A stretch of DNA of 31,476 nt from contig JBJTTJ010000037.1 in the NCBI GenBank assembly GCA_046080125.1, positions 1 to 31,476 on the forward strand, in the 5' to 3' direction. Both the position numbers and the translations under genes were made by a program. This document shows, piece after piece, positions 1 to 19,079 of the stretch. The stretch is from Cuspidothrix sp. GTDB taxonomy: Bacteria; Cyanobacteriota; Cyanobacteriia; Cyanobacteriales; Nostocaceae. The notes under the pieces were generated by a model that saw only the letters and a list, made by a program, of their open reading frames with translations, had not been told where the DNA came from and did no database searches. Within the stretch, counting starts at the first letter, position 1; every line of letters begins with the position of its first letter.

Positions 1-106
1 GGATTTCGGGTTCGCGCTTAATGGCGTTTGCCCGCATATCGAAGTTAGTCTTGGGTAAGTTGACGGTATCTTTGTATTTTCCAGTTTCGGTCACAGGTTC
101 ATGCCT

Positions 107-235
107 AAATGTAGGTGTGCAGGTTATCCGATCAATTATAAGTCGTCGGTTGGGTTGAGAAAACCCAACAACGCTTAAACGCTTATTGGTATTTTGGGGT
201 TAATGTTGGGTTTCACTTCGTTCTACCCAACCTAC
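107..235. repeat. Hairpin-containing dispersed repeat, copy R1 (upstream flank of the 3-gene cassette). It holds AAATGTAGG, a GGTTGGGTT-N5-AACCCAAC hairpin, GGTATTTTG, and the 28-mer GTTGGGTTTCACTTCGTTCTACCCAACC
   Basis: The 28-mer at 205-232 is identical to 2317-2344. The upstream hairpin at 148-169 matches the one at 2265-2290 in arrangement. R1 carries an extra ~33 bp (116-147) relative to R2. Confidence 0.6.
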
Positions 236-353
236 GGGAGCATAGGTAGAGCGAATTCCAAATAGTTTAGTCCTGAAACGATGTCTATACAAGCTTTTTA
301 ACTCTAAATTGTAAAACAATAACAAAATTAATAAAATTACTTAAAATATATAT

Positions 354-382
354 TGACAACTTTTGCTAGATAAAGCTATATT
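354..382 (+). promoter_or_regulatory. Sigma70-like promoter candidate: TTGACA, 17-nt spacer, TATATT
   Basis: Consensus -35 TTGACA (354-359) and -10 TATATT (377-382) with a 17-nt spacer, about 70 bp upstream of the first cassette gene and preceded by an AT-rich tract. Confidence 0.45.
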
Positions 383-451
383 GTCTGATATACAAATTTA
401 GTCAAACGATGAATAATATGTTTGTACTATTGCATTGAGAGGAAAAAGCAC

Positions 452-883
452 GTGAGTTCTTTTAAGCAGCTCCCACTATCAGACCTTAGAGAGAGCTTGC
501 CAAAGTTCAAGCGTCAAGTTCAGTTAGGGATGAAGAGAATTGCAGCTACCTATTATGGTCAAGTAGTTGCATTCTTAGTTCCTTTAAAGGATTTAGAACA
601 AGCTGAAAAAGATGGCGCTATTAGTAAAAGTGAAGAAATGTCTTTATCGGATTTCCGGCTACATTTAACGGAATGTTGGGAACGGTTACAAATGGATGTT
701 GATTGTATTTATGTAACGTATCATACGCGCAGAGCAGTAGCTTTTGTTAGCCCTCGTCTTACAAATTATCTTTCAATTCCAATTTCAGAAGTGGCTCATA
801 AGCTTCTTGCCATAGATAGCGGTCTTATTCAAGTAGAAAGTTTACTCAAGGAAGAAATAATTCATGTTCAACATCAAAGCTGA
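452..883 (+). CDS. Protein with two tandem Phd/YefM-antitoxin-like repeats (hypothetical). A GTG start at 452 is preferred; TTG at 422 is the alternative
   Basis: GAGAGG sits 9 nt upstream of GTG 452. Two internal repeats each have LSD[LF]R...[AV]VAF[LV]xP, matching the Phd/YefM N-terminal pattern (…lsevldrv…pvaVLvs.edye). The stop overlaps the next ATG by 20 nt. Confidence 0.55.
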   Translation: MSSFKQLPLSDLRESLPKFKRQVQLGMKRIAATYYGQVVAFLVPLKDLEQAEKDGAISKSEEMSLSDFRLHLTECWERLQMDVDCIYVTYHTRRAVAFVSPRLTNYLSIPISEVAHKLLAIDSGLIQVESLLKEEIIHVQHQS

Positions 884-1748
884 GTCAGAATTGCAAAAAC
901 AACTAAATAAACTAGAAGACTATTATCCTCCCGAAGTTTGTGTGGAATTTAATCAATTTCTAGAAATTCTGAGGAGAGATGGCCAATTTAGCAAAACAGA
1001 TTTTTATGATGTTAATACAAACCAAATTTCTGGACTGACTTGCAACTTATTTTACAGACCTGACTTTGAGAAAGGGGAAGTTTTAATAATTGCATTGAAA
1101 GTCAAGCCAGCAGACGTATTTAGACAGAGATTTAATATTAGGGATGAATGGGATGATAAGGATGTTCTAGAATCTATTCCCCAGTACGATAAACCAGAAA
1201 AAATTGTTAAGGCTATTGAGTTAATTCATCAAGGAATCCAAGATTCTTATGAATTAGGTTATGAATTAGGACATAGAGGCAAGAAAAGAGAATATATTTC
1301 TCGACACGGACAGTATGCGAAGCACGCTATCGAGCAACTTGAACTGATTGTAATAACTCGAAAAGGCAGACAATACCTAGTAGAACTAACAGAAAAAGGC
1401 AGGAGAATTGCTGAAGGAATTAATGATGAGTTAAAATTAAGATTGCTCTATGAAGCTATGTTGCACTATCCTCCTGTTTGGCGAATTATTGTCGCCGTTT
1501 CAGAAAGAGATAGTCAACTAAATGATGGAATACTAAATGATGAATTAGTTAAAAATATAGCTTTTCCAGAAATATTGCGAGGTGCTGATACAAGTAATCG
1601 TCGTTCTCAGACTTTAAAAAACTGGATCAAGCGGATTTCCAAGTTTTCTGGAATTCCTATACGTCTTCACAATAGTGGTATGCAGCTTACTATCCCAATG
1701 CTATATGCTGAAAATGAATATAACAATGAAAACACAGAGGAAGACTAA
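864..1748 (+). CDS. Fusion protein: an N-terminal RelE/ParE/YoeB-like region (weak), a central MarR-like winged-helix segment (…ITRKGRQYLVELTEKGRRI…) and an unassigned ~90-aa C-terminus
   Basis: AAGGAAG RBS precedes ATG 864. There is a 20-nt overlap with the upstream CDS and 23-44 nt with the downstream one. The motif LFYRPDFEKGEVLIIALKVK resembles the RelE/YoeB C-terminal beta-strand region. RHGQYAKH fits R-x6-H. Confidence 0.5.
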   Translation: MFNIKAESELQKQLNKLEDYYPPEVCVEFNQFLEILRRDGQFSKTDFYDVNTNQISGLTCNLFYRPDFEKGEVLIIALKVKPADVFRQRFNIRDEWDDKDVLESIPQYDKPEKIVKAIELIHQGIQDSYELGYELGHRGKKREYISRHGQYAKHAIEQLELIVITRKGRQYLVELTEKGRRIAEGINDELKLRLLYEAMLHYPPVWRIIVAVSERDSQLNDGILNDELVKNIAFPEILRGADTSNRRSQTLKNWIKRISKFSGIPIRLHNSGMQLTIPMLYAENEYNNENTEED

Positions 1749-2217
1749 AATATATGATTTTAAGAGCCAAGAGTTCATAGGTAAGAATGGTGAAAATATT
1801 CTTGATAAATGGCTTGGCTCTATCTATAAAATTTTAGATGTTTCCACGGTTAAAAAGTATCAAAATTCTGGTATAGACAGAATTTTGATGCGTCCCGATG
1901 GAAGCACTGTCAGCGTTGAGTATAAATTCGATTTAGCTTCATCAAGAACAGGAAATTTATTCTTTGAAACTGTCTCTGTAGATAATAAAAATATTCCTGG
2001 TTGGGGATGGCTATCACAGGCTGAATACTGGATATTTTTACTACCAACGATGGAAGTATTAGTAGTTGAGCCGGGAAAAATGAGAAATATGATTTGGTGT
2101 CATCGTTGGGAACTCCAAGAAAAGGAAATTCAGAACGTAGGCTATAAAACTTTAGGAATTCCTATTCCTTTATCTAAAGTTAGAGAAATTGCTTACTACA
2201 TCGTGCAACTAAATTAA
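1714..2217 (+). CDS. Small protein with a PD-(D/E)xK nuclease fold (Hjc/Mrr/VRR-NUC-like motif pattern: GENILDKWL … NSGIDRIL … VSVEYKFD). In-frame starts at 1705/1714/1726 (ATG) or 1675 are all possible
   Basis: An E … D … E-x-K motif series has spacing typical of the restriction-endonuclease-like fold. It overlaps the end of the previous CDS in the same operon and shares its AT-rich composition. Confidence 0.5.
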   Translation: MNITMKTQRKTKIYDFKSQEFIGKNGENILDKWLGSIYKILDVSTVKKYQNSGIDRILMRPDGSTVSVEYKFDLASSRTGNLFFETVSVDNKNIPGWGWLSQAEYWIFLLPTMEVLVVEPGKMRNMIWCHRWELQEKEIQNVGYKTLGIPIPLSKVREIAYYIVQLN

Positions 2218-2257
2218 ATAATTCATAAGTTAAGAGAACCCGACACAAACCATTAGC

Positions 2258-2344
2258 AAATGTAGGTTGGGTTGAAGAACGAAACCCAACACCACCAATC
2301 GGTATTTTGAAATCATGTTGGGTTTCACTTCGTTCTACCCAACC
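2258..2344. repeat. Hairpin-containing dispersed repeat, copy R2 (downstream flank of the cassette)
   Basis: Same element order as R1 and an identical 28-mer (2317-2344). It lies 45 bp after the cassette's last stop codon. Confidence 0.6.
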
Positions 2345-2756
2345 AAAGGCGGGTGTCCTGATGGTGCGTTTGTACTAATAACTCTCATATAACAGCCACT
2401 CTTCATTTTGTCTCCAACCGACGAGATCGCCTAACTTCAAATAATTAAGGATTTATATGGATTACTTATATAGGGGTCGGCAAAATGCCTGTGCCAGATG
2501 ACAATATTTTTGGTTATTATCACGGTTCGCTGTAACAACTTTGTCCAGAGGGTAAGTAAGATCCGAATGATCAGACTTGTGTAGAGAGGTTCTGGGGGAA
2601 CGTCTCTACATATTGGTTTAATTAAGTGTAAGTGAGATAGCCAAAATGTGTACTTCTTGACTTTTGTATTTTACTGGTTATCGAGGGTATTCGAGATCCT
2701 TGCCTTAGCATAAGACAATTTTTGAAGCCCACCTACTTATCTGAAATTCAGATTAC

Positions 2757-3146
2757 TTACTCACCCTCTAGCAAAGCGCGGTATTCATCTGCTGTCATAG
2801 CATCCTCAATTTCAGCAGCATCATGGATACGCACTTTGATAAACCAACCTTCTCCATAGGGATCATCAGCGACTTGTTCAGGAGATCCTATCAAAGAATC
2901 ATTCCGTTCTATGACAGTACCACTAATGGGTGAATTTAGTTCTTCGACAGCTTTTACTGATTCAATTGTACCAAATGTATCTCCTACAGCGATCGCAGCA
3001 CCAATTTCTGGCAGTTCCAAAAAGACAACATCACCTAATTGATCAACAGCAAATTCAGAAATACCAATAGTAGCAATGTCACCATCTAGACGAACATATT
3101 CATGGGAATCTAAGTATCGTAAATCTTGGGGATATTCAAAGGACAT
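2757..3146 (-). CDS. gcvH: Glycine cleavage system H protein
   Basis: 129 aa. Lipoyl-attachment context …GTIESVKAVEELNSPISG… with canonical GcvH N-terminus and length. Confidence 0.9.
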   Translation of the reverse strand: MSFEYPQDLRYLDSHEYVRLDGDIATIGISEFAVDQLGDVVFLELPEIGAAIAVGDTFGTIESVKAVEELNSPISGTVIERNDSLIGSPEQVADDPYGEGWFIKVRIHDAAEIEDAMTADEYRALLEGE

Positions 3147-3227
3147 ATCACTTTCACTTCCACGTTAAAAAATAGTGTTACAAGAGTAACCTAAACCACA
3201 TTATTCCTCAAAAAACCTCAAAGCAGA

Positions 3228-4364
3228 TTAGTTATTAACACGATTCCTTGAGCGATAAAATGGACGTTTCACCACCACCGTCGAGAACACTTTACCCCGA
3301 ATATCCACCTCTAGCTGCTGTTTGAGGGTTGCTAACTCAGTGGGAACATAAGCTAAAGCAATGGGATAACCAAGGGTAAGAGAAAGAGTACCACTAGATA
3401 CTTCCCCAACAATTTTACCCGAGGATAATACAGAGTAGCCATGGCGGGGAATATTCCGTCCTTGTGTTTGTAAACCCACGAGTTTACGGTGTACTCCTTG
3501 GTGTTTTTGCTGGATTAACAGTTCTCGCCCAATAAAATCGCCTTTAGTATCTAAATGTACTAACCAACCCAAACCAGCCTCTAGAGGTGTGGTGGTATCA
3601 TCAATATCTTGACCATAAAGTGCCATAGCAGCTTCTAAGCGTAGGGTATCTCTACAACCAAGTCCACAGGGGATAACACCAAGATTATATAGAGTTTGCC
3701 ATAGTTGTATCCCCACGGATTGATCTATCATAATCTCAAAACCATCTTCCCCAGTGTAGCCAGTACGCGCCAGAAATGCGTGTTTACCAAAAATGGTTGT
3801 TTCTAAATGACCAAAAGCCTTAATGGGTGATAAATCATTTGTAACTAGGGATTGAAGATAATTAGTAGCTGTTGGACCTTGAAGGGCAATTAAGATTTTA
3901 TTCCGTGAAAGGTCTTGAAATTCAACAACATCAGGATCAAGATGTGCTAAGATCCATGTTCTATCTTTATCTGTAGTTGCGGCATTGACAATAATTACCA
4001 CCTTTTGGATACCATTGCTATTTGTACCTTGGTAATAAATAATGATGTCGTCAATAATTCCTCCTTGCGGGTTGAGTAATACAGTGTATTGTGCTTGTCC
4101 AGGTTGTAGACGACTTAAATCGGAAGGAACTAAATACTCAAGTTGGGAAATGGCATTTTTACCTTGGAGGGTAAATTTGCCCATGTGGGAGATATCAAAC
4201 ATCCCAGAGGCATTTCTAACGGCGTGGTGTTCTTGGGTAATACTGGTATATTGTATGGGCATTTCCCAGCCACCAAAGCTGGTAAATTTAGCCTTGAGTT
4301 CTACAGCGGTTTGATATAGAGGGGTTCGCGCTAGAGAGGGGGTAATATTTTCTTGATTAGCCAC
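3228..4364 (-). CDS. gcvT: Glycine cleavage system T protein (aminomethyltransferase), GTG start
   Basis: 378 aa. Conserved N-terminus RTPLY…GGWEMPIQY and GcvT folate-binding regions. Immediately upstream of gcvH on the same strand. Confidence 0.9.
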   Translation of the reverse strand: MANQENITPSLARTPLYQTAVELKAKFTSFGGWEMPIQYTSITQEHHAVRNASGMFDISHMGKFTLQGKNAISQLEYLVPSDLSRLQPGQAQYTVLLNPQGGIIDDIIIYYQGTNSNGIQKVVIIVNAATTDKDRTWILAHLDPDVVEFQDLSRNKILIALQGPTATNYLQSLVTNDLSPIKAFGHLETTIFGKHAFLARTGYTGEDGFEIMIDQSVGIQLWQTLYNLGVIPCGLGCRDTLRLEAAMALYGQDIDDTTTPLEAGLGWLVHLDTKGDFIGRELLIQQKHQGVHRKLVGLQTQGRNIPRHGYSVLSSGKIVGEVSSGTLSLTLGYPIALAYVPTELATLKQQLEVDIRGKVFSTVVVKRPFYRSRNRVNN

Positions 4365-4512
4365 AGATAGTTATTTATATTTACTTGGGATAATAGATCA
4401 ACACTTATTTATCCTACGGGATAGCTTCTAATTTAGCAGAGAATTATTTCTGACTCCCTAGTGAGGTTTAATGATTAATAGTGGAATTGTTGAGATTTAT
4501 TAAGCAAAAATT

Positions 4513-5010
4513 ATGAAGTATTGGCAAATAGTCCTTAGCTGTGTATTAACTGTGGGAGTATTACTATTCCCTGTTTCAGCGCAAGCGGCAAGTTCTTCTA
4601 ATGTTACCAGTTCTCTTTTGAACAAGGCAGTTCCTGGTCAGGACTTTTCCGGTAAAAGTTTAATTGGTAAGGAGTTTACAAGTGTCAAATTAGAAAATAC
4701 TAACTTTAGTAATGCTGATTTACGAGGTGCTGTATTTAATGGCACTTTATTAGATACTGTCAATTTCCATGGTGTGGATTTTAGTGAAGGTATTGCTTAT
4801 TTAAGCAAGTTTAAAGATACTGATTTAAGTAATGCCATCTTTAAAGATGCAATGATGTTACGTTCCACCTTTGATCAAGTTAATATCACTGGTGCTGATT
4901 TTACTAATGCGATTTTAGATATGGTACAGGTGAAAAAACTTTGTCTTAACGCCAGTGGTATAAATTCTCAAACAGGTGTAGATACTCGCCAATCCCTGGG
5001 ATGTAAATAA
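4513..5010 (+). CDS. Pentapeptide-repeat protein with N-terminal signal peptide (thylakoid-lumen/periplasmic Rfr type)
   Basis: Signal peptide …VSAQA, then A(D/N)LxxA-type pentapeptide repeats. The C-terminal Cys pair (…LCLNASG…SLGCK) is shared with the paralog at 19222-19728. Confidence 0.8.
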   Translation: MKYWQIVLSCVLTVGVLLFPVSAQAASSSNVTSSLLNKAVPGQDFSGKSLIGKEFTSVKLENTNFSNADLRGAVFNGTLLDTVNFHGVDFSEGIAYLSKFKDTDLSNAIFKDAMMLRSTFDQVNITGADFTNAILDMVQVKKLCLNASGINSQTGVDTRQSLGCK

Positions 5011-5020
5011 AAACATTTAT

Positions 5021-5042
5021 CCCCTTCTCCGTCAGGAAGGGG
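5021..5042. terminator. Bidirectional intrinsic terminator hairpin between the convergent pentapeptide gene and cheA-like gene
   Basis: CCCCTTC-TCCGTCAG-GAAGGGG, a 7-bp GC-rich stem, flanked by T-rich runs on both strands. It abuts the cheA-like stop codon. Confidence 0.5.
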
Positions 5043-7970
5043 TTAATTTATGGACACTGTTTCCTCAATCTGGAAAATAATTTCCTCCAATGTTTTCAAT
5101 AATTCTTGTTCATTGTAAGGCTTAGAGAAATAGGCTTTTGCCCCTAATTGCATAGCTAATTGACGATGTTTACTACTACTACGAGAGGTCAACATTACCA
5201 CAGGAATATGTTTTAATTGTGCATGATTATTAATACGTTCCAAGAAGCTATAACCATCAATGCGTGGCATTTCAATATCACAAATTACCGCTTGAATTTG
5301 TAACCCACTTTCTAGCTTCTCCCAAGCTTCTTGACCATCTTTGGCTTGTTCTACTTGATAGCCACCTTTTTCGAGAGTTAAAGCTAGATAACGCCGTACA
5401 TTGATTGAATCATCAACAATCAAAATAATTCCTTTTTGTCGGGTAGGTCGGCTGATATTAGCTACTTTTGGCGGTTGCAGGAAAGCAGTTTGCAATCTTG
5501 TGGTTGGTAGTTTATTACTGAGATAGGGACCTTGACCAGTCGTTAGCCATAATACTAAATCATTTGTGTTTACTAGGGGAACTACTCGACCATCACCCAA
5601 AATAGTACAGTTATTGAAACCGCTAGGTAGGGGGATATTGCCTTCTACTTGACGAATTGCTACTTCCTGTTCACCCCAACAGCGTTCTACTTGAACGGCA
5701 ATTTGTTGATGATCCTGTTTAATTATTAATACGCTGGTTGCATTAATAATAGGGGGGGTTTCTAATTCCCAGTTATTGTAATGAGAACAATTAAATTCAA
5801 AGTAACTATTGAGGCGTAATAATGGTAATTGAGTGTTTTGCCAATGAATAAATGCCTTACTATCTTCATAGAAAATTTGCTCATTTGCTAACAAGAAAAT
5901 TTCCTCAATTACATCTGTGGAGAATGCCAATAGTAAACGATAATTGCGATCGCCGCAAGCATCAGTTTCTACTAATAATACTCGCGCTACCGATAGAGTA
6001 AATGGTACAGATAATGTAAATTTTGTTCCTATGCCAGCTTGAGTATCAACGTTCACATCTCCCCGCGCTATTTTCAGGTTATTTCGGACTACATCCATTC
6101 CCACTCCCCGACCGGATAAAGCTGTTACCTGTTCCGACGTACTAAAACCAGGTTCAAAAATTAATGATAGTAGTTCTTCATCAGTAGCAGTTGCTAATAA
6201 AGTATGATCCAAACCCATTTTTACGGCCTGATCACGAATTTTTTCTACCGCAATGCCTCGACCATCATCACGGATAGTAATTATTGTGCGATTACTATGA
6301 TAAGCAGCTTTAATTTCAATTAAACCTTGTTCGGGTTTTCCTTGGTTTTTCCGTGTTGTAGGGTCTTCAATGCCATGATCAAAAGCGTTACGTAACAAGT
6401 GCATTAATGGCTCATTTAAAGCTTCTAAAATACTCCTTTCAATTAAAGTATTTCCGCCTTCAATTTTTAATTGCACATTTTTGCCATACTCAACATTTAA
6501 GTCTCTAATTGCCCTGGGAAAACGTTCTACTAAATCAGAAAAAGGACGCATCCTAATTTGGGTTAATTGTCTTTGTAATTGTTTCGATGTTTTATTTAAT
6601 TTCCGCGCTATTTGATCCGTATCATCAACACTTAATTGAATATCACTGGTAACTTCTGCTAATTGCACAAGAGTTTCCATCATATTCTGAGATAATAAAT
6701 TTAATTTTTGCTGGCTATCTGACTCTAAAATAGTATTTTCTGTTTCTTCATTTACGTGATTATCATTAATGATTTTTGCATAAGCTATCCGCATTTCTTG
6801 ATTTTCTTCATCAAGAGTACGAACTCTTTGACTTAGACTTCGCACTAATTTACGTAGTCTTTCTACTTGCACATTTAAGCCATTACGTTGAATAATTACC
6901 TCTCCAAATAGATCATTAATTCTTTCGAGATGTTTGCTAGGAACTCTAACTGTATTTTCCTGATTTTCTCTTTCTTTATGGAGTGGGTTAGTATCGTTTC
7001 TACTTTCAGTATATTTAGTATCTACAGTATCTACTGTATCTCTTTCTGGATGATTAGCAAAATCACCAGCATTAATATCTGGGGATAATTGGACATTTTC
7101 TAATAATTCTAAATCCGAAATAACTGGTTTCTTTGACAGAGGATCAGCTTGACTCGCTAACATATTTATTTGTAGGGAGCCTTGATCATCAATAATTTGA
7201 CTTAGATCAATTTTTTTAGGTAAATTACCCCATTGATTACTTAATACTAAAGCTTGCGATCGCCGCCATGCTTGTAATGCTAAATCAGCAATTTCTAAAC
7301 AGTGATTAGGATAGATATCTAAAGAACGGCTGACTGATTTACATAGTTCGGTAAAAGCCGTTAACTGAAGCATTTCTCCTAAACCAGCCAACTCATTCGC
7401 CATCATGGCTAAATCCGATCTAATCCCTGACGTATTATTATTTTTTAATCTTGCTTCCAGACGTTTTAAATATTCTTCAACTTCAGTTTCAAACAATAAA
7501 GGGATAAATTCTTGACCATCTTCCGATGATAATAAGGTCGTAATATTTTCTGGTGTGGGTTCACCAAGACGCTGATAAAGTTGATCAAAAACTGGATAAC
7601 AGACCTTTTCTAACCAAATATGATCTAAATTATTACCCTTAGCAAGTAATTCGACAATTTGCCTGAGCCAATCCACAGCAGATAGTAATAAACTTTGTAA
7701 ATGAGTATCAAATTCTAGAGAATTTTTCTGAGTCTTTAAAACCTTAAAAGCATCTTCCAAGCGATGGGCTAAATCACTTAATACACGGAATCCCATCATT
7801 GCTGCGCCGCCTTTAATCGAATGGGCGGCTCGCATGGCTGCGTTAATATGTTCTAATTCAATCTGTCTGCTATTATCAATTTCTAGTAAAATTACCTCTA
7901 AAGTATTGAGATAATCAGTGGCCTCTTCTAGAAATTGCATTTGGATTTCCAATTCTTTATCTTTAGACAT
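5043..7970 (-). CDS. CheA-like hybrid histidine kinase (Hpt – dimerisation – HATPase – CheW-like – C-terminal REC; PilL/TaxAY/HmpE-like)
   Basis: Hpt motif HSIKGGAAMMGF. HATPase N-box HLLRNAFDHGIE and G-boxes. CheW-like region. C-terminal receiver ILIVDDS…DIEMP…, 975 aa. Confidence 0.88.
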   Translation of the reverse strand: MSKDKELEIQMQFLEEATDYLNTLEVILLEIDNSRQIELEHINAAMRAAHSIKGGAAMMGFRVLSDLAHRLEDAFKVLKTQKNSLEFDTHLQSLLLSAVDWLRQIVELLAKGNNLDHIWLEKVCYPVFDQLYQRLGEPTPENITTLLSSEDGQEFIPLLFETEVEEYLKRLEARLKNNNTSGIRSDLAMMANELAGLGEMLQLTAFTELCKSVSRSLDIYPNHCLEIADLALQAWRRSQALVLSNQWGNLPKKIDLSQIIDDQGSLQINMLASQADPLSKKPVISDLELLENVQLSPDINAGDFANHPERDTVDTVDTKYTESRNDTNPLHKERENQENTVRVPSKHLERINDLFGEVIIQRNGLNVQVERLRKLVRSLSQRVRTLDEENQEMRIAYAKIINDNHVNEETENTILESDSQQKLNLLSQNMMETLVQLAEVTSDIQLSVDDTDQIARKLNKTSKQLQRQLTQIRMRPFSDLVERFPRAIRDLNVEYGKNVQLKIEGGNTLIERSILEALNEPLMHLLRNAFDHGIEDPTTRKNQGKPEQGLIEIKAAYHSNRTIITIRDDGRGIAVEKIRDQAVKMGLDHTLLATATDEELLSLIFEPGFSTSEQVTALSGRGVGMDVVRNNLKIARGDVNVDTQAGIGTKFTLSVPFTLSVARVLLVETDACGDRNYRLLLAFSTDVIEEIFLLANEQIFYEDSKAFIHWQNTQLPLLRLNSYFEFNCSHYNNWELETPPIINATSVLIIKQDHQQIAVQVERCWGEQEVAIRQVEGNIPLPSGFNNCTILGDGRVVPLVNTNDLVLWLTTGQGPYLSNKLPTTRLQTAFLQPPKVANISRPTRQKGIILIVDDSINVRRYLALTLEKGGYQVEQAKDGQEAWEKLESGLQIQAVICDIEMPRIDGYSFLERINNHAQLKHIPVVMLTSRSSSKHRQLAMQLGAKAYFSKPYNEQELLKTLEEIIFQIEETVSIN

Positions 7971-8014
7971 TATTCCTTGTTCCTTATTTATGGGTTGCTT
8001 TAATAGTTAGGAGG

Positions 8015-10621
8015 TTAATTAACCGAAAAAGTTTCTAAAGTTTCCTTTAATTCCTGTGAAACATCTACTGCTTTCTCTAAAGATTGATAAATTTGACGAT
8101 AATTATCACTACTACGAGTGGAGATGCTGTTCATTTTTTCGATAGTTTGGCTCAGAAGTTGTGATGTTTGTAATTCGGATGCAGTCGAATTTAAAATAGA
8201 GTTGCTCAAGCTATCTATCTGTTGTGATACATCGAGAATTTGTTGTAACTGCTGTTTTACATTTTTAATCATCTGGCTACTTTCAATAACTCGATTATTT
8301 CCCATAGTCATTGTTTGTAACATTTCGCTGGTTTCTTGCTGAATGTTGGTAATTATTTCTTCGATTTCCTGAATTACGGTAGCACTTCTACCGGCTAATT
8401 CTCCTACTTCTTCAGCTACTACAGCAAAACCTTGGCCTTCTTCTCCTGCTTTTGCCGCCTCAATTCCAGCATTAATTCCTAGTAAATTAGTTTGCATAGC
8501 AATTTGATTAATGATAGAAACTACACGAGAAATTTGTTGGGAAGATGCCCCTAACCATTTTAATTTTTTAGTTGTTTCCTCAACTGTTTCCTGGATTAAT
8601 AAAATATTTTGCAATGTTAACTCCATTGCTGCTTGAGTATCTATAGCTTTATGATTGCTTTCATTAACAATTTTAACAGTTTGCTGCGCCATATTTCCTA
8701 TAGATTGAAGAGCAATTGTCATCTTGTTAATGCTTTCTAAGCTGTGGTTAAGTTGTGGTTCTATCACTGTTTCTGCTGTGAGTTGTTTGAAGGAAATATT
8801 CACCTCACTTACAGATTGTTGAATTTGGTTGATAATTGGCTGAAGATTATTCTGAAAATCGTGTATTTCTAAACTATCTTGACTATTATTCACTTGTTTA
8901 TTTGCTGTTAATCTTTTAATCTGGTCTACCAGATAGGATTGTTCTAAAGCATAACCTATTTCCATTACTATCTGTGTCAAGAAACTAATTTCTTCTTGTT
9001 GCCAATTATGGCAATTTTGACAATGATGAACAATTAAAAAGCCTTTAATTTCTCCATGAATGAAAATTGGTGCAGTGATACTGCTCTGAACATACAATTT
9101 TTTCAGCCAGTCAAGATAACTATTAGTTATATTAGTAGCTGTTTCTGAATTGGATATGATTTGTAATTGAGGATTTGCTGCTAGTTCTTGCCAATGAGCA
9201 TCATTATTATATGCACCCAGGATTTTTTCCCAAGTCCCATTTATTGATTCAGCAACAAATTTTCCTGTTTGATTATCTTTACTAAGCTTATAAATTATTA
9301 CTCTGTCTGCTTTAAGGATTTGAACAAGTTCCGAAACTACTGTTTGATAAATGTATTCAGGCTGAAAATGCAAGCGCATTTTTTTAGTAATATTTAAAAT
9401 TAATTCTAGCCATTGCATTTCTCTTGCTGGGTATTCATCTAGCTTGGCTGCATTGAGATGTCTGTCCTCTTGGCTACCCCTTAAATTACCTAGAGATGTA
9501 TCATTTTTATTCTTAATTCGTTGACTTAATATGGCTACTACCAAAGTCATTAATAATGCGATTAGTGGAGTTGTACTGGCAATTAATGTTAAAAATTCTC
9601 TTTGAGGTTTAAAGGCAATAGTTGTATCTTTAGCCAGGATTAATTGCCAATTGGTTTCTGGTAAATCTGCTAATTTGCGAAATGGTATATAACTGATTAA
9701 TTCTTGTTTTCGATTAGTTTTAGCAATTGCCGTAAATGTATCAATATTTTTCGCTTTTAAAACATTAGCTAAAGCTGGATATATTTCCATAGCATCTTTC
9801 CCAAATAAATTTGTCTGGGAACTGATAACGATTTTTCCTGTTTCATCTAAAAAATAATATGTATCATTTGTATAGCCTCGTACTACTTCTTCTAAGGTTT
9901 TTAAGGGTATACGAGTTCTAACTATACCAATAGTATTGCCCTGGTCTTTAATAGGTGCAGCAATATAAATGACTGCACCTATATTGTTTAGAAAAACAGG
10001 TTGACTAATAATCGAAGTATTTTTTCTAATTGCTTCTTGAAAATAAAGCTGTTCGTTTTCTGGGGTTAAAGTTTCTCCTGCTGATTGAATGATTACTTGT
10101 CCCTTCAGATCAAATGCAGCTACACTATCATAAACTTTACTTGTTTTTATTAGTCGGTTTAAAGAGTCTTTTGTTTCTAGATTAAATCGAATTGTGTTAA
10201 CTTTATCTACTAAATTTGCTTGTGCAGATGGTGTTTTTTTAGGGACAGTATTTTTATCCAACCAGAAGAAGTTAGGTAATACTTGAATATCTCCATGGTG
10301 CTTCTGAATCAGACTATTGACTGTATCATTAATGCTAATGGCTTTAGTTTCTTGAGATGTGATAATTTGTTTAGTAATTAAGTTGCTACCAAAAATATAA
10401 GCGATCGCACCGATTCCTAATACTGGCAAAGTGCCCACAGCTATAGACAAGATTATAGATTTGGTACTTAACCTAAATTTACTAACATATTTCAAGGCGA
10501 GATTTTTACTATTCTCTGGAATAGATTTTTCTGGTGTATTATCTATAGGTTTAGTGGAAGTAATCAAGGTTAGTTGATTTTGAGGATCTGTGTTTTGTTT
10601 GATATTAGTTTTATTGAACAT
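8015..10621 (-). CDS. Methyl-accepting chemotaxis protein (PilJ/HmpD-like). Two TM segments flank a ~300-aa extracytoplasmic region, followed by a GAF domain and an MCP signalling domain
   Basis: Highly conserved MCP signalling core …[29 protein letters not shown]… A GAF-like region (…[11 protein letters not shown]…). Two hydrophobic helices near residues 55-80 and 340-365. Confidence 0.88.
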
Positions 10622-10683
10622 ACATTAGTCACCCTGCATAGAAAGTAGATAAAAACATTTAACACAAGATTTCCCAGTATTAA

Positions 10684-11175
10684 TTAGGAGTTAATACGAA
10701 GAATATCTGATTGTAAAATCTGTACTGCATCTAATACCAATAATATTTCTTCTTGTTGCACTATACAACCACACAAGAAAGGTACTAAACTAGATGCTAC
10801 CTGTCCTACAGGAGAACGAATATCATCAACAGTAAACTTAGTTGTTCCTTGAACTTCTTGGACAACCAAACCTAAGATCATTGATTCTATTTGAATAACA
10901 ATGATGTTATACTGACGTAAGCGATAATCAAGAGATTCCAAATTAAACATCTTAGGTAAATCAACTACCCAGATGATATGACTACGCCAATTCATTAATC
11001 CTAATATACAAGGGGGCATATTGGGAACTGCTGTAACAGATGTCACAGGTGTTACAACTGCCTCCTGAGTATGACTAATGGATAAAACAGCACCTGTTTG
11101 TTGATTGAGTTGAAATTTCAGATAGCTATCTTCTGGTTGAGAATGTGTACTGGGATGGTTGAAATCAGTTTGCAT
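10684..11175 (-). CDS. CheW-like coupling protein (PilI/HmpC-like). The ATG at 11175 is preferred; the longer GTG start at 11265 is possible
   Basis: CheW domain (…LKFQLNQQTGAVLSISHTQEAV…ILGLMNWRSHIIWVVDL…). The first 30 aa of the long ORF are not CheW-like. Confidence 0.75.
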   Translation of the reverse strand: MQTDFNHPSTHSQPEDSYLKFQLNQQTGAVLSISHTQEAVVTPVTSVTAVPNMPPCILGLMNWRSHIIWVVDLPKMFNLESLDYRLRQYNIIVIQIESMILGLVVQEVQGTTKFTVDDIRSPVGQVASSLVPFLCGCIVQQEEILLVLDAVQILQSDILRINS

Positions 11176-11469
11176 CTTTTGTATGAGGATGATGAAAATT
11201 AGTTTATAGGGTTTTTTGCTGGAGTCAAATACTTTAACCCCATTGTAGGAAACTACGGTGTACACAGAAGTTTAATCAAGTGGCCTAAATATCTGACCGC
11301 ATTGTTTGAAGAGTTACCTTTAATTTTAGAGAATATAGTTACCCAGAGATAAAGTTTGTATAAAAGTGGGAAATTCCGGCGCTCACCTTCTAGAGTACCT
11401 ATACCTGCAAGTGTTTATAGACCAGTCTCTGACTGGGGATAATCAGATAGAGACTCTGCTTTTATTATT

Positions 11470-11513
11470 ATTAACTAAAATTACCGTAGCGATGCCTACT
11501 AGCAAGGCATCGC
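11470..11513 (-). terminator. Candidate intrinsic terminator downstream of pnp
   Basis: On the minus strand, an 8-bp GC-rich stem (GCGATGCC / GGCATCGC, 9-nt loop) is followed by UACGGUAAUUUUAGUU. A second AT-rich 13-bp inverted repeat (11514-11526 / 11546-11558) lies between it and the pnp stop. Confidence 0.4.
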
Positions 11514-11568
11514 GGATTTTAGATTTGTGATTCATCCCTAATCTAAAATCTAAAATCCAATCAGTGGT

Positions 11569-13725
11569 TTAACGGTTTACTGATGCTGCTTCCCGTGCTG
11601 CTGCTGCTTGATCTGGGTGGATACCCAAGCGTGTCAGGTTAATGCGTCCCTTATTGTCAATTTCTCGCACCTTGACAATGACCTCATCACCAACAGCTAC
11701 CTCATCTTCAACTTTACCAACACGGTAGTCAGCGAGTTGAGAAATGTGAATCATGCCCTCCTTACCGGGTAAAAATTCCACAAAAGCACCAATGGGTATA
11801 ATCCGAGTCACACGACCGATATAAACATCACCTTCATGAAGTTTACGAGTCATACCTTGAACAATGTTCCGAGCCTTCTTAGCCCTATTTTCATCCACTG
11901 CGGAAATAGTGACAGTACCATCATCTTGGATATCAATTTTAGCACCAGTTTCTTCAGTGATACCCTTAATAGTTTTGCCACCAGGTCCAATGACCAGACC
12001 AATCATGTCAGGATCAATCTTAATCGTTAACAGACGTGGAGCAAAAGGTGAAGTTTCTTCTCTGGGGGTGTCAATAGTTTCCAGCATTTTCTCCAGAATG
12101 TGCAACCGGGCAGATTTGGCTTGGTTGACAGCTTGGGCAATTACCTCTAAAGATAGACCAGATATTTTCATATCCATTTGCAAAGCTGTAATACCGCTAT
12201 CTGTGCCGGCAACTTTAAAGTCCATATCACCCAGGAAATCTTCAATACCTTGAATATCAGTGAGGACTCGTACTTCATCTCCTTCCTTAATTAAACCCAT
12301 AGCCGCACCACTGACGGGTTTGGTAATTGGTACACCGGCATCCATGAGAGAGAGAGTAGAACCACAAACTGAACCCATAGATGTAGAACCATTAGAAGAA
12401 AGAACTTCTGAAACGACGCGAATTACGTAGGGGAACTGGTCTTTAGGTGGTAATACAGGTAACAAAGCTCTTTCCGCTAATGCACCATGGCCAATTTCTC
12501 GTCTACCGGGGGCGCGTAATGGTTTAGTTTCGCCCACGGAGAAGGGAGGGAAATTATAGTGATGTAGATAACGCTTGGCTTGGTCTAATTGTAAGTCATC
12601 ACTCAAGTTTTGGGCATCACCCGGAGTCCCTAGAGTACACATTGATAGGACCTGAGTCAGTCCTCGGTTAAATAGACCGCTACCATGAACTCGTTTAGGG
12701 ATTAAACCTACACGGCAAGACACAGGGCGGACTTCATCAAGTTTGCGACCATCAACGCGGATGTTATCTTCAATAATTTGACGGCGCATCAGATATTTGG
12801 TAATACTTTTGAAAGTATTACCCAAGGCCTTAGAATCTGCTGTAGCCGCAACGCGAATGGAGTCTTCTTCTGATAAAGCGGCAATTTCTGCTGCAATGGC
12901 ATCTTTAACTGCATCCAAAGCAATATCCCGATCAGTTTTAGTCAACTCAAATTGAGCCAGGATTTTCTTAATTTGATCACCAGCGCGATCGCGGATATAG
13001 TTTTCTAATGTCTGATCCACTTCTGGGGGTACTTCTGCCACAGATTTAAGACCTAGTTCTGCCACTAAATCCAACTGAGCTTGAATTAAATCTCGTACCG
13101 CCTCATAGCCAAAATCAATTGCCTCAATAATATCCCGTTCTGGCAACTGATTCGCACCAGCTTCCACCATGATGACACCATCTGGTGAACCTGCTACCAC
13201 TAGATCCAAATCTCCTGCCTCAATTTCTGCGTAGGTAGGATTAATAATAAAATCATCACCCACTAAGCCAACCCGCACTGCGGCCATGGGTCCATTAAAG
13301 GGAATTTGGGCAATGAGGGTAGCAATTGAAGCGCCTGTCACGGCTAAGACATCCGGTGGAACTTGCTCATCCATGGACATCGTTAAGGCCACAACTTGTA
13401 AATCATCCCGTAACCATGAAGGAAATAAAGGACGAAGGGGACGATCAATCAGACGACTGGTAAGAATTGCCTTTTCCGGTGGACGACCTTCCCGACGCAT
13501 AATTCCTCCGGGAATTCTGCCTGCCGCATATAGTCTTTCTTCATAATCCACGGTCAGAGGCAAAAAATCAACGCCCTCTCTAGCGGCTGATCTTGTCGCT
13601 GTTACTAAAACAGTTGTATCACCTGATTGTATCAACACCGACCCACCTGCTTGGGGGGCCAGTAGGCCAACCGTTAGTCGAATATCCCGTCCATCAAAGG
13701 ATATTGACTTTTCAAATTCTGCCAT
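11569..13725 (-). CDS. pnp: Polyribonucleotide nucleotidyltransferase (PNPase)
   Basis: 718 aa with two RNase PH domains, KH and S1 (…[20 protein letters not shown]…). Canonical N-terminus [15 protein letters not shown]. Confidence 0.93.
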
Positions 13726-14007
13726 TCAGTTTTTTTTCCTTCTCTTGCGCGATTCTCACTCTGTGGCAATCCTAACATTTATGCAGTCTAGACGGCTTGT
13801 GTCATGAACAAACATAAAACAAAATTTCCCCAGTTGGTAGCAAGGTGGGTCTAATATCGGAGTTTGTCATCTCAGCCATATTTTTCAGCAGGATTTCATA
13901 ATAGTTCATCAATCAATTAGGATCTAATTAACCATATTGTACTTACCCTTACTATTTAAAAACAATGAAGTCGGGGATCTGGGTATGAACATAAATTATG
14001 AAATTAT

Positions 14008-14796
14008 TCAAGCGCCCATACCTGAATAGTGTTTTAAACCCATACGCCATAGTAGACGATTAGCGCCTAAAAATATGAAAAACCAGCCTAAAATTGACAA
14101 AAATCCTCCATGTAAATTTACTGGCAGTCCTACCAAAATACTAGCTGGAAAATTAATTATGTAGGGAAAAGGTGTTAGCATAGCTAGGGTTCTGATCGAC
14201 TGGGGAAAAACATCTAAAGGAGCGATTAAACCTGATAAAAATATAAAAAACAACAGCCATAAATTTTCCAAAGCTGCTGTTCTTTCTGTCCAAAATGCAA
14301 ACATAGCAAAAGTATATTGTATGATAAATCTTAAAGAGAAAGCCATAGTTAGCGCCAGTATAAATAATAATATATTAGCTAGACTTGGCAACCATATTGC
14401 TTGGGGATAGAGGACAAAAAATAATATTGATACCATTAATACAAAAGGGATTCTGGCTAATTTTTCGCTCAGATGGATAGTGATATGATGCCAGACAGGA
14501 TCTATAGTTTGTAATAATTTTAGTGATAGTTTACCTTCCAATACTTCTTTTTCAAAATCATAAATTACCCAAGCGGTAGTCATTTGTCTAGACAGAAAAA
14601 CGGCGAAAAAATATCGTATAAAATCTATCGAGCTAAAGGGGAATTTACCACTTTTAGAGGCTTGATCCCAAATACCCATCATGATAATTGGTAAAGATCC
14701 AGCTAACACCCATAATAATAGTTCTGATCTGTATTCTAGCAGATAGGCATAGTGTACAGAGAGTAAAGTGAAGAACTGCTTGAGATTTTTTTTCAT
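14008..14796 (-). CDS. ABC-2 family transporter permease
   Basis: 262 aa, about 6 TM helices with ABC-2 topology. It starts 5 bp after the stop of the upstream ABC ATPase on the same strand. Confidence 0.75.
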   Translation of the reverse strand: MKKNLKQFFTLLSVHYAYLLEYRSELLLWVLAGSLPIIMMGIWDQASKSGKFPFSSIDFIRYFFAVFLSRQMTTAWVIYDFEKEVLEGKLSLKLLQTIDPVWHHITIHLSEKLARIPFVLMVSILFFVLYPQAIWLPSLANILLFILALTMAFSLRFIIQYTFAMFAFWTERTAALENLWLLFFIFLSGLIAPLDVFPQSIRTLAMLTPFPYIINFPASILVGLPVNLHGGFLSILGWFFIFLGANRLLWRMGLKHYSGMGA

Positions 14797-14801
14797 AGGT
14801 A

Positions 14802-15785
14802 TTAGTTGTTAAATCCCGTTTTAAAAACTCTACCAATTACCTCTTCTACTGGTAGTTCTTTTACAGTTAAATCCACCACATCCAGATTAGCTAAAATTTC
14901 AGAAACAGTTCGTGTCATTGCTTCTTGTTGAACAATGAATCTGACTGATCTTCCTTCCAGCATTTGTACATCACCATAGGTTTTCAGATTTGCTAGTGGT
15001 AATGGTTGACCTAACTCGACATAAATTTCCCGATAGGGAGAAAAAGTTGCTAATAATCCATTTAATTCCCCATCATACATAAGTTTTCCATGATGAATTA
15101 ATAACACCCTTTGACATAGAGCCGTAATATCTGCCATGTAGTGACTTGTTAGTAAGATAGTTGCTTGATATAGCTGATTATATTCCTTTAAGAAATCCCG
15201 TACTCCCACCTGAGCATTGATATCTAAACCTAAAGTTGGTTCATCTAGAAATAAAACTTGGGGACGGTGTAAAAGTGCTGCTAATAGTTCAGCTTTCATC
15301 CGTTCACCCAGCGATAATTTTCGTACAGGTTGGGTTAATTTACCTGCTAAAGAGAGCATTTCTATTAGTTCCCCAACTCGACGCTGAAATTCCTGATCAG
15401 AAAGATTATAGACTGCGGCGTTAATTCTTAAAGAATCGAGGGCGGGTAAATCCCAAATTAATTGCTGTTTTTGTCCCATGACCAAGGTAATTTTTTGTAG
15501 AAATGCTTCTTGACGCTTAAAAGGAGTGAATCCGCCCACTTTAACTGTACCATGGGAGGGGTGTATTAAGCCTGTGAGCATTTTTAGAGTAGTGGTTTTA
15601 CCTGCACCATTAGGGCCTAAAAAACCGACCATTTCCCCTGGTTCAATAGTGAAAGAAACATCTTCAACTGCTGTAATATTGCGATAAGTGCGGCGAAAAA
15701 AATGGCTAATAGTTCCCTTTATTCCCGGATCTTTAATCGCTACCGAGTATGATTTACTGAGATTGTTTGCAATAATAATTGACAT
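14802..15785 (-). CDS. ABC transporter ATP-binding protein (ABC-2 / export type). Alternative start at 15815
   Basis: Walker A GPNGAGKTT, signature LSLGERMK, Walker B LLFLDEPTLGLD, H-loop. A typical N-terminus MSIIIANNLSKSY begins at 15785. Confidence 0.85.
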   Translation of the reverse strand: MSIIIANNLSKSYSVAIKDPGIKGTISHFFRRTYRNITAVEDVSFTIEPGEMVGFLGPNGAGKTTTLKMLTGLIHPSHGTVKVGGFTPFKRQEAFLQKITLVMGQKQQLIWDLPALDSLRINAAVYNLSDQEFQRRVGELIEMLSLAGKLTQPVRKLSLGERMKAELLAALLHRPQVLFLDEPTLGLDINAQVGVRDFLKEYNQLYQATILLTSHYMADITALCQRVLLIHHGKLMYDGELNGLLATFSPYREIYVELGQPLPLANLKTYGDVQMLEGRSVRFIVQQEAMTRTVSEILANLDVVDLTVKELPVEEVIGRVFKTGFNN

Positions 15786-19072: not shown

Positions 19073-19079
19073 TGAGTAG

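What the first reader, a model, noticed from the sequence alone, without database searches (positions are those of the whole stretch)
864..1748. Toxin-like N-domain fused to a MarR-type winged helix
In type II TA systems the antitoxin usually carries the DNA-binding domain. Here the second gene carries an unmistakable wHTH wing signature (ITRKGRQYLVELTEKGRRI) after a ~120-aa region with RelE/YoeB-like strand motifs, plus a further ~90-aa C-terminal region of unknown function. The nearby R-HGQYAK-H also fits the HEPN R-x4-6-H spacing, so the region could instead be HEPN-like. Either way it is a non-canonical architecture.
Basis: inference. Interest (0 to 1): 0.6.

Follow-up and report, generated by a model that had tools for sequence, protein, structure and literature searches.

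The report
RelE-fold toxin fused to restriction-type DNA reader
The gene encodes a protein with a RelE/YoeB-type toxin fold joined to a DNA-recognition module otherwise found on restriction enzymes; it sits in a small mobile cyanobacterial cassette between a doubled Phd/YefM antitoxin gene and a DNA-cutting nuclease gene, an arrangement we found described nowhere.

Summary

The HEPN alternative is rejected, and "MarR-type" is imprecise.

The upstream gene (452-883) is a single-chain tandem Phd/YefM antitoxin. The downstream gene (1726-2217) is a PD-(D/E)XK nuclease with an intact D..ExK motif.

A-B-C is a mobile cassette found only in cyanobacteria. A-B also occurs without C in four lineages, so A-B is the core pair.

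The RelE-fold domain has no sequence-level similarity to RelE or YoeB, has no family-wide catalytic residues, and is the fastest-evolving part of the cassette.

Best reading, with moderate confidence: this is a YefM/YoeB-derived pair in which the toxin fold acts mainly as the antitoxin-controlled switch of a DNA-targeting module, which is usually partnered with the nuclease.

It is a new variant of a known kind. Interest is moderate to good.

The parts
145..237 (.). Left copy of a ~90-nt hairpin-forming (MITE-like) repeat that flanks the cassette
   Evidence: There is a direct repeat with 2262-2349. The core GTTGGGTTTCACTTCGTTCTACCCAAC occurs exactly twice in the window against 0 expected. It folds as a long hairpin with z -3.8 to -4.3.
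310..316 (+). TGTAAAA, a copy of the conserved upstream motif YGTAAAA (candidate operator or UP-like element)
   Evidence: The motif is present in forward orientation upstream of the promoter in 22 of 24 non-redundant loci. Its density is 5.2/kb against 0.15/kb in the background.
353..382 (+). Promoter-like site TTGACA-18-TATATT
   Evidence: It matches 11 of 12 consensus positions and is the best site in 100-2500. A TTGACA at the same relative place is seen in most homologous loci.
421..430 (+). TTTGTACTAT, a 5'-UTR motif shared by the main clade (GTAC core)
   Evidence: It is conserved between -10 and the ribosome-binding site in L001, L016, L017, L024 and L027. The resemblance to yefM-yoeB operators is from memory only.
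452..883 (+). Gene A: 143-aa single-chain tandem Phd/YefM-type antitoxin (repeat 1 aa ~4-46, repeat 2 aa ~62-104) plus a ~40-aa C-terminal tail. It has a GTG start and overlaps gene B by 20 nt.
   Evidence: Pfam PhdYeFM_antitox matches at E 1e-5 (25.7 bits, below the 29.8 cutoff), and all 30 of 30 orthologs match. The profile hits the antitoxin chain of PDB 9g12 at E 5.8e-4. One half aligns to the other at E 2e-5. The GTG start is supported by conservation from MSSFKQLP. PGAP names the Nostoc ortholog 'prevent-host-death family protein'.
864..1139 (+). Gene B, aa 1-92: RelE/YoeB-fold domain
1140..1193 (+). Gene B, aa 93-110: acidic linker ending in the conserved IPQ(Y/A)DxPxK start of DUF7226
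   Evidence: pLDDT dips to 72-82 here. P106, Q107, D109, P111 and K113 are conserved, also in restriction-enzyme-linked DUF7226 proteins.
1194..1388 (+). Gene B, aa 111-175: winged helix. The recognition helix 142-158 carries the invariant R147/Y151, and the wing is 162-175.
   Evidence: R147 and Y151 are invariant across all DUF7226 proteins aligned.
1389..1658 (+). Gene B, aa 176-265: helical second half of DUF7226, with invariant T243, R246 and R247
1659..1748 (+). Gene B, aa 266-294 and stop: conserved tail (..IPIRLxxxGxQLTIPMLY) predicted as disordered, a probable docking peptide. It overlaps gene C by 23 nt.
   Evidence: pLDDT is below 50 from residue 271, yet G263, I264, P265, I266, Q274 and L275 are at least 90% conserved. 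The tail is kept in loci that lack gene C.
1726..2217 (+). Gene C: 163-aa PD-(D/E)XK nuclease (start at ATG 1726, alternatively 1711)
2262..2349 (.). Right copy of the flanking hairpin repeat
   Evidence: Homology to other Dolichospermum/Anabaena genomes stops at 2344, the end of this repeat.

Best explanation
Gene B (864-1748) is the second gene of a mobile, cyanobacteria-restricted cassette that descends from a YefM/YoeB-type (Phd/RelE-type) toxin-antitoxin pair.

Shown:
- Gene A encodes two Phd/YefM domains in one chain plus a C-terminal tail.
- Gene B encodes a RelE/YoeB-fold domain tethered by an acidic linker to DUF7226. DUF7226 is a winged-helix plus helical DNA-recognition module. In other bacteria it is fused to PD-(D/E)XK nuclease domains of restriction-type enzymes.
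- In most loci a third, overlapping gene C encodes a stand-alone PD-(D/E)XK nuclease with an intact active-site motif.

Inferred mechanism:
- The tail of A grips the RelE-fold domain of B as YefM grips YoeB.
- The A-B complex sits on the operator motifs upstream and keeps the operon low and B inert.
- When A is lost (proteolysis, or shut-off of synthesis during stress or infection), B is freed. It engages DNA through DUF7226 and, where C is present, brings or licenses its DNA cleavage.
- In this reading the RelE fold is mainly the antitoxin-controlled switch and not a conserved RNase. Residual RNase activity in the window's own clade is not excluded.

For: A-B is the core pair:
- A-B-C is colinear in 23 of about 30 informative gene-C loci and in L001, L002 and L053.
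- A-B occurs without C in four lineages, including a Nostoc plasmid.
- A accompanies every B with an intact N-domain except L052.

DUF7226 as a nuclease-linked DNA reader:
- The profile search finds it C-terminal to DUF6996-DUF6997, which carries a D..EAK motif. It also finds it fused to PDDEXK_11, and N-terminal to another ExK domain.
- One such gene lies between two DNA methyltransferase genes.
- The C-half resembles FokI.
- This part of B is basic (median pI 9.4).

C as a nuclease.

Switch rather than enzyme:
- The N-domain is the fastest-evolving part (16-30% identity where A keeps about 50% and C about 54%).
- It has no family-wide K/R/H/Y at active-site positions.
- The A tail diverges in step with it.

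Cis elements travel with the cassette.
Against:
- C occurs alone with an intact ORF in five genomes. C also occurs with an N-truncated B and no A in two genomes. A nuclease that needs A for safety is therefore not demonstrated.
- A-B pairs without C show that B must have a role of its own.
- The main clade, which includes this window, keeps D46, K81, K/R87, R89 and F90. These lie near where RelE and YoeB have catalytic residues, so an RNase activity may persist.
- One B homolog (L052) lacks A and sits next to a Dam methylase.
- No hit in PADLOC or in phage genomes ties the cassette to defence.
Confidence: 0.45

Rival explanations
1. B is a genuine RelE/YoeB-type mRNA interferase. A-B is an ordinary type II toxin-antitoxin pair whose toxin carries an extra DNA-binding module, for operator binding or localisation. 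C is an accessory or hitch-hiking nuclease.
For: - The RelE/YoeB fold.
- A Phd/YefM antitoxin upstream with overlapping genes.
- A-B stands alone in four lineages, one on a plasmid.
- The main clade conserves D46, K81, K/R87 and R89.
- Two-domain RelE toxins with Phd/YefM antitoxins have been described (bioRxiv 10.1101/2023.12.08.570793).
- Loss of A coincides with loss of the N-domain in L042 and L043.
Against: - None of these residues is kept in the 17 far-clade proteins, which keep the same architecture and partners.
- There is no sequence-profile similarity to any RelE/ParE/YoeB family.
- The N-domain is the least constrained part of the cassette.
- Its only family-wide polar invariants are two glutamates on helix 2.
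Confidence: 0.28
2. B plus C is a split, methyltransferase-less restriction-type endonuclease. B is the DNA-recognition subunit and C the catalytic subunit. Its own genome is protected by the host's orphan Dam-class methylation. A and the RelE fold act as a controller that delays or gates nuclease activity.
For: - DUF7226 and C-like nucleases recur next to Dam-class methyltransferases: P0227 between two MTase genes, P0233 fused to a Dam fragment, L052 B-like next to a Dam, and L048 C-like next to an MTase.
- DUF7226 is fused to PD-(D/E)XK domains in both orders.
- The B allele is swapped as a unit between otherwise identical cassettes (dS 0.376 against 0.011 and 0.021), as seen for specificity subunits.
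- The family is restricted to cyanobacteria, where GATC methylation is widespread (from memory).
Against: - There is no methyltransferase in the cassette or nearby.
- The DNA-contact residues of DUF7226 are invariant rather than diversified.
- A-B exists without C, and C without B.
- There is no sequence relation between C and the nuclease domains fused to DUF7226.
- Methylation sensitivity is untested.
Confidence: 0.15
3. B is only a transcription factor. The RelE fold is a protein-interaction domain, and A-B regulates C or other genes without any toxic activity.
For: - A confident winged-helix module.
- A conserved upstream motif.
- The Rippkaea ortholog is annotated 'putative transcriptional regulator'.
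- There is no conserved catalytic set in the N-domain.
Against: - Patchy, mobile distribution with different flanks in each genome.
- Frequent frameshifts in B or C.
- Presence on plasmids.
- TA-type gene order with a Phd antitoxin.
- The DUF7226 relatives are nuclease-linked, not regulators.
Confidence: 0.1
4. The region around R147-H154 is a HEPN RNase motif.
For: The spacing R-x6-H is present in this one sequence.
Against: H154 is not conserved (H/Q/S/T/D). R147 and Y151 are shared with all DUF7226 proteins, including restriction-enzyme domains. The segment is the recognition helix of a winged helix followed by a beta wing. No HEPN profile or HEPN structure is among the matches.
Confidence: 0.01

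Closest known systems
YefM-YoeB / Phd-type antitoxin with RelE-type toxin (e.g. M. tuberculosis RelB1-RelE1, PDB 9g12; E. coli YefM-YoeB, 2a6q)
   Same: Antitoxin gene first, toxin-fold gene second, and the genes overlap. The A profile matches the 9g12 antitoxin chain, and the B N-domain matches the 9g12, 2a6q and 7v6w toxin chains. There is a promoter-proximal operator-like motif.
   Different: The antitoxin is a tandem, single-chain double Phd domain. The toxin fold has no detectable sequence similarity and no family-wide catalytic residues. It is fused to a 160-aa DNA-recognition module. A nuclease gene usually follows.
Two-domain RelE/ParE toxins with a C-terminal 'Shared Domain' and Phd/YefM antitoxins (bioRxiv 10.1101/2023.12.08.570793)
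   Same: A RelE-fold toxin extended at its C-terminus by an extra domain, paired with a Phd/YefM-type antitoxin. The extra domain is proposed to contact other factors.
   Different: That domain is a 70-75 aa three-helix bundle, mainly in Actinomycetes. Here the extension is DUF7226 (winged helix plus helical subdomain, about 160 aa), the system is cyanobacterial, and it has a third nuclease gene.
Modular restriction endonucleases: FokI, and the uncharacterised DUF6996-DUF6997-DUF7226 and PDDEXK_11-DUF7226 proteins
Mrr-type (type IV) enzymes: Mrr_N winged helix plus PD-(D/E)XK
   Same: A winged-helix reader together with a PD-(D/E)XK nuclease and no cognate methyltransferase. Mrr_N matches weakly in 8 of 54 homologs.
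   Different: The matches are below threshold. The nuclease is not of the Mrr_cat family (no Pfam match). The two parts are separate genes.
Three-gene toxin-antitoxin systems (e.g. PaaR-PaaA-ParE, toxin-antitoxin-chaperone); comparison from memory
   Same: A RelE/ParE-fold protein within a three-gene, autoregulated cassette.
   Different: In those systems the third gene is a regulator or chaperone, not a nuclease, and the toxin is a single domain.

Membership tests
RelE/ParE toxin superfamily | Fold: strand, two helices, then a three- or four-stranded antiparallel sheet (with or without a C-terminal helix) | tested here: met
RelE/ParE toxin superfamily | Match to a sequence profile of the superfamily (Pfam ParE_toxin, YoeB_toxin, HigB etc.) | tested here: not met
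   There is no match for the window protein. One of 54 homologs matches ParE_toxin at E 0.077. hhalign against RelE and YoeB gives probability below 1%. A PDB sequence search finds nothing.
RelE/ParE toxin superfamily | Conserved catalytic or RNA-binding residues (RelE K52/K54/R61/R81/Y87; YoeB E46/R65/H83/Y84) | tested here: inconclusive
   Family-wide, only E24, E28, L36, G40 and Y64 are conserved. The main clade keeps D46, K81, K/R87 and R89; the far clade keeps none. No residue-level superposition was available.
RelE/ParE toxin superfamily | Growth inhibition neutralised by the cognate antitoxin | not testable with these tools
   This needs expression experiments.
Phd/YefM antitoxin family (gene A) | Match to PF02604 and to solved Phd/YefM-fold antitoxins | tested here: inconclusive
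   The score is 25.7 bits against a gathering score of 29.8. All 30 orthologs match, with best E 4.1e-7. The profile hits 9g12_C at E 5.8e-4. A second internal copy is detected. No structure model was made for A.
Type II toxin-antitoxin module | Adjacent, co-oriented, overlapping antitoxin and toxin genes that travel together between genomes | tested here: met
   The overlap is 20 nt. A-B are together in all but one locus with an intact B. Flanking genes differ between genomes. Plasmid copies exist.
DUF7226 (PF23871) | Score above the Pfam gathering threshold | tested here: met
   29.3 bits against 27, covering aa 143-259. All 54 homologs match, with best E 3.5e-14. The signature residues PQxD, R147, Y151, T176, G179, T243, R246, R247 and W254 are shared with other DUF7226 proteins.
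MarR family | Match to MarR profiles and the MarR dimer architecture | tested here: not met
HEPN | Conserved R-x4-6-H motif in an all-helical bundle | tested here: not met
   H154 is variable. The segment is the recognition helix of a winged helix. There are no HEPN matches.
PD-(D/E)XK nuclease superfamily (gene C) | Restriction-endonuclease-like fold with a D...(D/E)xK motif | tested here: met
Type II restriction-modification system | Cognate DNA methyltransferase encoded with the endonuclease | tested here: not met
   There is no methyltransferase in 1-4500 or among the ten other large ORFs scanned (4513-22754). None appears in the cassette in any locus with A-B-C.
Known anti-phage defence systems (PADLOC-DB 2.0) | Match of any of the three proteins to a defence-system model | tested here: not met
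   Only chance-level matches were found (E at or above 0.0045).

The most novel reading that the evidence does not exclude
A toxin-antitoxin pair has been rewired into the control switch of a split restriction-type nuclease. B reads DNA through the same module that Dam-linked restriction enzymes use. C cuts. The host's own orphan adenine methylation, not a cassette-encoded methyltransferase, protects the chromosome. The doubled Phd antitoxin gates the whole device through a catalytically dead RelE fold. This would be a methyltransferase-free, antitoxin-gated restriction or abortive-infection system specific to cyanobacteria.
Probability: 0.15. Interest if true: 0.75.

Novelty: new variant of a known kind. 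Interest (0 to 1): 0.55.

Why it matters
RelE-family toxins are normally single-domain RNases that rely on the antitoxin for DNA binding. Here the toxin fold is welded to a restriction-enzyme DNA reader. It is paired with a single-chain double antitoxin and usually followed by a DNA nuclease.

If the toxin fold serves as a regulatory handle, this is a clear natural case of a toxin-antitoxin interaction being reused as a switch for a different effector. That would link toxin-antitoxin modules and restriction-type nucleases.

The work also gives a first functional context for two uncharacterised families: DUF7226 and the gene C nuclease family, which has no Pfam model. It offers a compact three-protein system that can be tested directly in E. 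coli or Anabaena.

Tried and rejected
- **HEPN reading:** rejected on conservation and fold.
- **MarR membership:** rejected.
- **PDB sequence searches with B and its profile:** no match. With the C profile: only a chance match.
- **PADLOC, NCBIfam and PHROGs:** no informative match.
- **Phage genomes:** no B homolog. Viral contigs: only two remote C-like matches.
- **Rfam on 1-2800:** nothing.
- **hhalign of the C profile against nuclease domains fused to DUF7226 (P0232, P0227, P0260):** no relation.
- **The search for related loci with the B alignment:** failed for lack of a conserved stretch.
- **AlphaFold database fold library:** unavailable.
- **Net charge of the N-domain as a test of ribosome binding:** uninformative, range -5 to +8.
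- **Literature searches for DUF7226, DUF6996/6997 and related phrases:** zero papers. Makarova 2009 (PMC2701414) does not describe this system.
- **Stand-alone N-domain relatives:** only truncated fragments in the 1.84-billion-protein profile search, so there is no evidence for split versions of B. The apparent split in Pseudanabaena PCC 6802 is a frameshift.
Full report
**1. The observation**

It is a real gene.
- The 5.8-billion-protein search returns 71 homologs. All come from cyanobacteria and nearly all are 280-300 aa.
- The alignment of 54 of them (A1) has 58% mean column identity.
- Against a diverged allele in a sister genome, dN/dS is 0.15.

**2. What the protein looks like**

An AlphaFold2 model built on A1 is confident (mean pLDDT 86.7, pTM 0.82; only 271-294 fall below 50).

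Residues 1-92 run strand 3-6, helices 8-15 and 23-39, strands 46-49, 52-56, 60-67 and 72-80, then helix 82-90.
- Foldseek agrees: E. coli RelE 4fxe_E has target TM 0.73, rmsd 2.3 and probability 1.0.

It is not detectable by sequence.
- No Pfam toxin family matches. Only one of 54 homologs gives ParE_toxin, at E 0.077.
- Profile comparisons with RelE and YoeB give probabilities below 1%.

After an acidic linker (93-110) comes a winged helix: helices 111-122, 128-134 and 142-158, with the wing at 162-167 and 170-175. A helical subdomain follows, reaching about residue 262.

Together these two parts are Pfam DUF7226 (29.3 bits against a cutoff of 27; 54 of 54 homologs). They are not MarR.
- MarR structures superpose only on the winged-helix core, with rmsd 8-12 A.

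The stretch R147-HGQYAK-H154 is the recognition helix.
- R147 and Y151 are invariant in every DUF7226 protein aligned.
- H154 varies.

The HEPN idea is therefore rejected.

The last ~30 residues are conserved (GIPIRLxxxGxQLTIPMLY) but modelled as disordered. This is typical of a docking peptide (inference).

**3.

*Gene A (452-883).* It starts at a GTG, as shown by conservation from MSSFKQLP in distant genomes. It overlaps gene B by 20 nt.
- All 30 orthologs match PhdYeFM_antitox (best E 4.1e-7; the window copy scores 25.7 bits, under the 29.8 cutoff).
- The A profile hits the antitoxin chain of PDB 9g12 at E 5.8e-4. This is the same complex whose toxin chain is a top structural match of the B N-domain.
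- PGAP calls the Nostoc ortholog 'prevent-host-death family protein'.
- The two halves of A align to each other (E 2e-5). A is therefore a single chain with two Phd/YefM domains and one ~40-aa tail.
- A YefM dimer binds one YoeB (established knowledge), so a fused double domain with a single tail would reproduce that stoichiometry (inference).

*Gene C (1726-2217).* It overlaps B by 23 nt.
- It has no Pfam family.
- D51 and E65 are invariant. E23, K67 and E81 are at least 90% conserved.

**4. What DUF7226 does elsewhere**

A profile search of 1.84 billion representatives finds only 92 proteins. About half are members or fragments of this family. No stand-alone N-domain family appears.

The remainder match only profile positions ~100-266. 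They fall into these groups:
- Proteins of 420-440 aa with DUF6996-DUF6997-DUF7226. DUF6997 carries a D...EAK motif.
- One protein with PDDEXK_11 plus DUF7226.
- Proteins with DUF7226 first and another ExK domain after it.
- Short stand-alone forms.

Links to methyltransferases:
- One DUF6996-DUF6997-DUF7226 gene lies between an N6_N4 and a D12 (Dam-class) methyltransferase gene.
- One is fused to a Dam fragment.

DUF7226 is thus the DNA-reading end of restriction-type PD-(D/E)XK nucleases. By the logic of domain fusions, B and the adjacent nuclease C are expected to work together (inference). C itself shows no sequence relation to those fused nuclease domains.

**5. Distribution**

*Gene-C-centred loci.* A pattern scan of one genome per species with gene C gave 35 loci. 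Of these, 34 are cyanobacterial and one is a remote Anaerolineales match next to a methyltransferase. About 30 have enough flank to judge.
- 23 carry A-B-C in order. Four of these have frameshifts in B and/or C.
- Five carry C alone with an intact ORF.
- Two carry C with an N-truncated B and no A.

*Gene-B-centred look-ups.*
- Three more A-B-C loci (L001, L002, L053).
- Four A-B pairs with no C at all: Nostoc plasmid pn2, Anabaena azotica, a 7.6-Mb assembly, and Microcoleus.
- One B-like gene without A, beside a Dam methylase on a Crinalium plasmid.

A-B is therefore the core pair, and C is a frequent but separable partner.

Flanking genes differ from genome to genome.

In the window the cassette lies between ileS and gcvH. 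It is bracketed by two copies of a ~90-nt hairpin repeat. Homology to sister genomes stops at the end of the right repeat.

**6. Evolutionary rates**

Across 20 triads, B diverges far faster than A or C. Within B, the RelE-fold domain diverges fastest: 16-30% identity where A keeps about 50% and C about 54%.

Conservation in the N-domain:
- Family-wide, it conserves only E24, E28, L36, G40 and Y64.
- The main clade (54 sequences, including this one) also keeps D46, K81, K/R87, R89 and F90.
- The 17 far-clade proteins keep none of these.

The tail of A diverges in step with the N-domain.

Between the window and Anabaena sp. CRKS33, A and C are almost identical (dS 0.011 and 0.021). B has dS 0.376. 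This is an allele replacement confined to gene B.

**7. Cis elements**

- A strong promoter-like site lies at 353-382 (11 of 12 consensus positions).
- Just upstream, a motif YGTAAAA (310-316 here) occurs in 22 of 24 non-redundant loci. Its density is 5.2/kb against 0.15/kb in the background.
- The main clade also shares TTTGTACTAT in the 5'-UTR (421-430).

Which protein binds which site is unknown.

**8. Interpretation**

*Shown:*
- a RelE/YoeB fold fused to a restriction-type DNA reader;
- a doubled Phd/YefM antitoxin upstream;
- a PD-(D/E)XK nuclease downstream;
- a mobile, patchy, cyanobacteria-only distribution.

*Inferred (confidence about 0.45):* A holds B through the RelE fold and represses the operon. 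Loss of A frees B to engage DNA and, where C is present, to direct or license cleavage. The RelE fold acts mainly as the switch.

*Main rival (about 0.28):* the N-domain is still an mRNA interferase, at least in the window's clade, and DUF7226 is an add-on. The stand-alone A-B pairs and the clade-specific basic cluster speak for this reading. The loss of that cluster in the far clade and the weak constraint on the domain speak against it.

*Third reading (about 0.15):* a methyltransferase-less restriction device protected by host Dam-type methylation. The recurrent Dam neighbourhood of DUF7226 and C-like nucleases suggests it, but nothing tested here demonstrates it.

*Other readings:* a purely regulatory role is unlikely (about 0.1). 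HEPN is refuted.

**9. Novelty**

No paper in the searchable library mentions DUF7226, DUF6996 or DUF6997.

The closest published idea is that of two-domain RelE toxins with a different, smaller C-terminal 'Shared Domain' and Phd/YefM antitoxins (bioRxiv 10.1101/2023.12.08.570793).

The present architecture is a new variant of a type II toxin-antitoxin module, with links to restriction enzymes. It is not a new category.

Noticed in passing
window 145-237 and 2262-2349: Two direct copies of a ~90-nt hairpin-forming repeat bracket the three-gene cassette and occur nowhere else in the window. Identity to Dolichospermum/Anabaena genomes (L014, L015, L023) runs from position 1 to exactly 2344, the end of the right copy, and then stops. 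The repeat therefore marks a rearrangement or insertion boundary.
   Followed up: partly
L023 5600-6056 (Dolichospermum circinale AWQC310F), compared with window 1-213: In this genome the same cassette lies next to ileS. It is followed by a 90%-identical partial duplicate of the ileS 5' end and upstream region. Nodularia (L053) also has ileS-A-B-C. The window instead has gcvH/gcvT on the right.
   Followed up: partly
window 864-1748 versus L015 4133-5020: Between two otherwise almost identical cassettes, only gene B is diverged (dS 0.376, against 0.011 for A and 0.021 for C; dN/dS 0.15). This is an allele replacement confined to gene B.
   Followed up: yes
window 310-316, and the same relative place in 22 of 24 loci: A motif YGTAAAA, often in two or three tandem copies such as AAACGTAAAAAACGTAA, sits just upstream of the -35 box of the cassette promoter. 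It is about 35-fold enriched over background. The binding protein is unknown.
   Followed up: partly
window 452-883: Gene A is an internal tandem duplication of the Phd/YefM domain in one polypeptide, a ready-made pseudo-dimer with a single tail. Literature searches for such single-chain YefM antitoxins found nothing relevant.
   Followed up: partly
P0192 (362 aa, metagenomic representative): One sequence reads from the second Phd repeat and tail of A straight into B in a single ORF, because A's stop codon is lost. It is either a natural A-B fusion or a sequencing error.
   Followed up: no
L043 2134-5486 (Anabaena cylindrica UHCC 0172) and L042: A and the first ~50 codons of B are deleted, while the DUF7226 part of B and gene C stay intact. 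The remnant abuts an ATPase gene (366 aa) and a 280-aa gene of unknown function, which may be another defence pair.
   Followed up: no
L048 4605-6547 (Anaerolineales MAG): This is the only non-cyanobacterial relative of gene C. It is a C-terminal domain of a 281-aa protein, directly followed by a large DNA methyltransferase gene, which is a restriction-modification-like context.
   Followed up: no
L052 (Crinalium epipsammum PCC 9333 plasmid pCRI9333.02): A full-length B homolog (313 aa) without A or C lies between a DEAD/DEAH helicase gene and a DNA adenine methylase gene. These are followed by genes for a serine protease, an EAD1-domain protein and a MoxR ATPase, which looks like a conflict-system neighbourhood.
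   Followed up: no
window 20130-22754 (-): An 874-aa ORF covers only the PHP, NTPase and finger domains of DNA polymerase III alpha. This is probably the N-terminal half of the split dnaE known from cyanobacteria (from memory). The other ORFs scanned, up to 22754, are housekeeping (gcvH, gcvT, CheA/MCP/CheW-like genes, PNPase, an ABC transporter).
   Followed up: no
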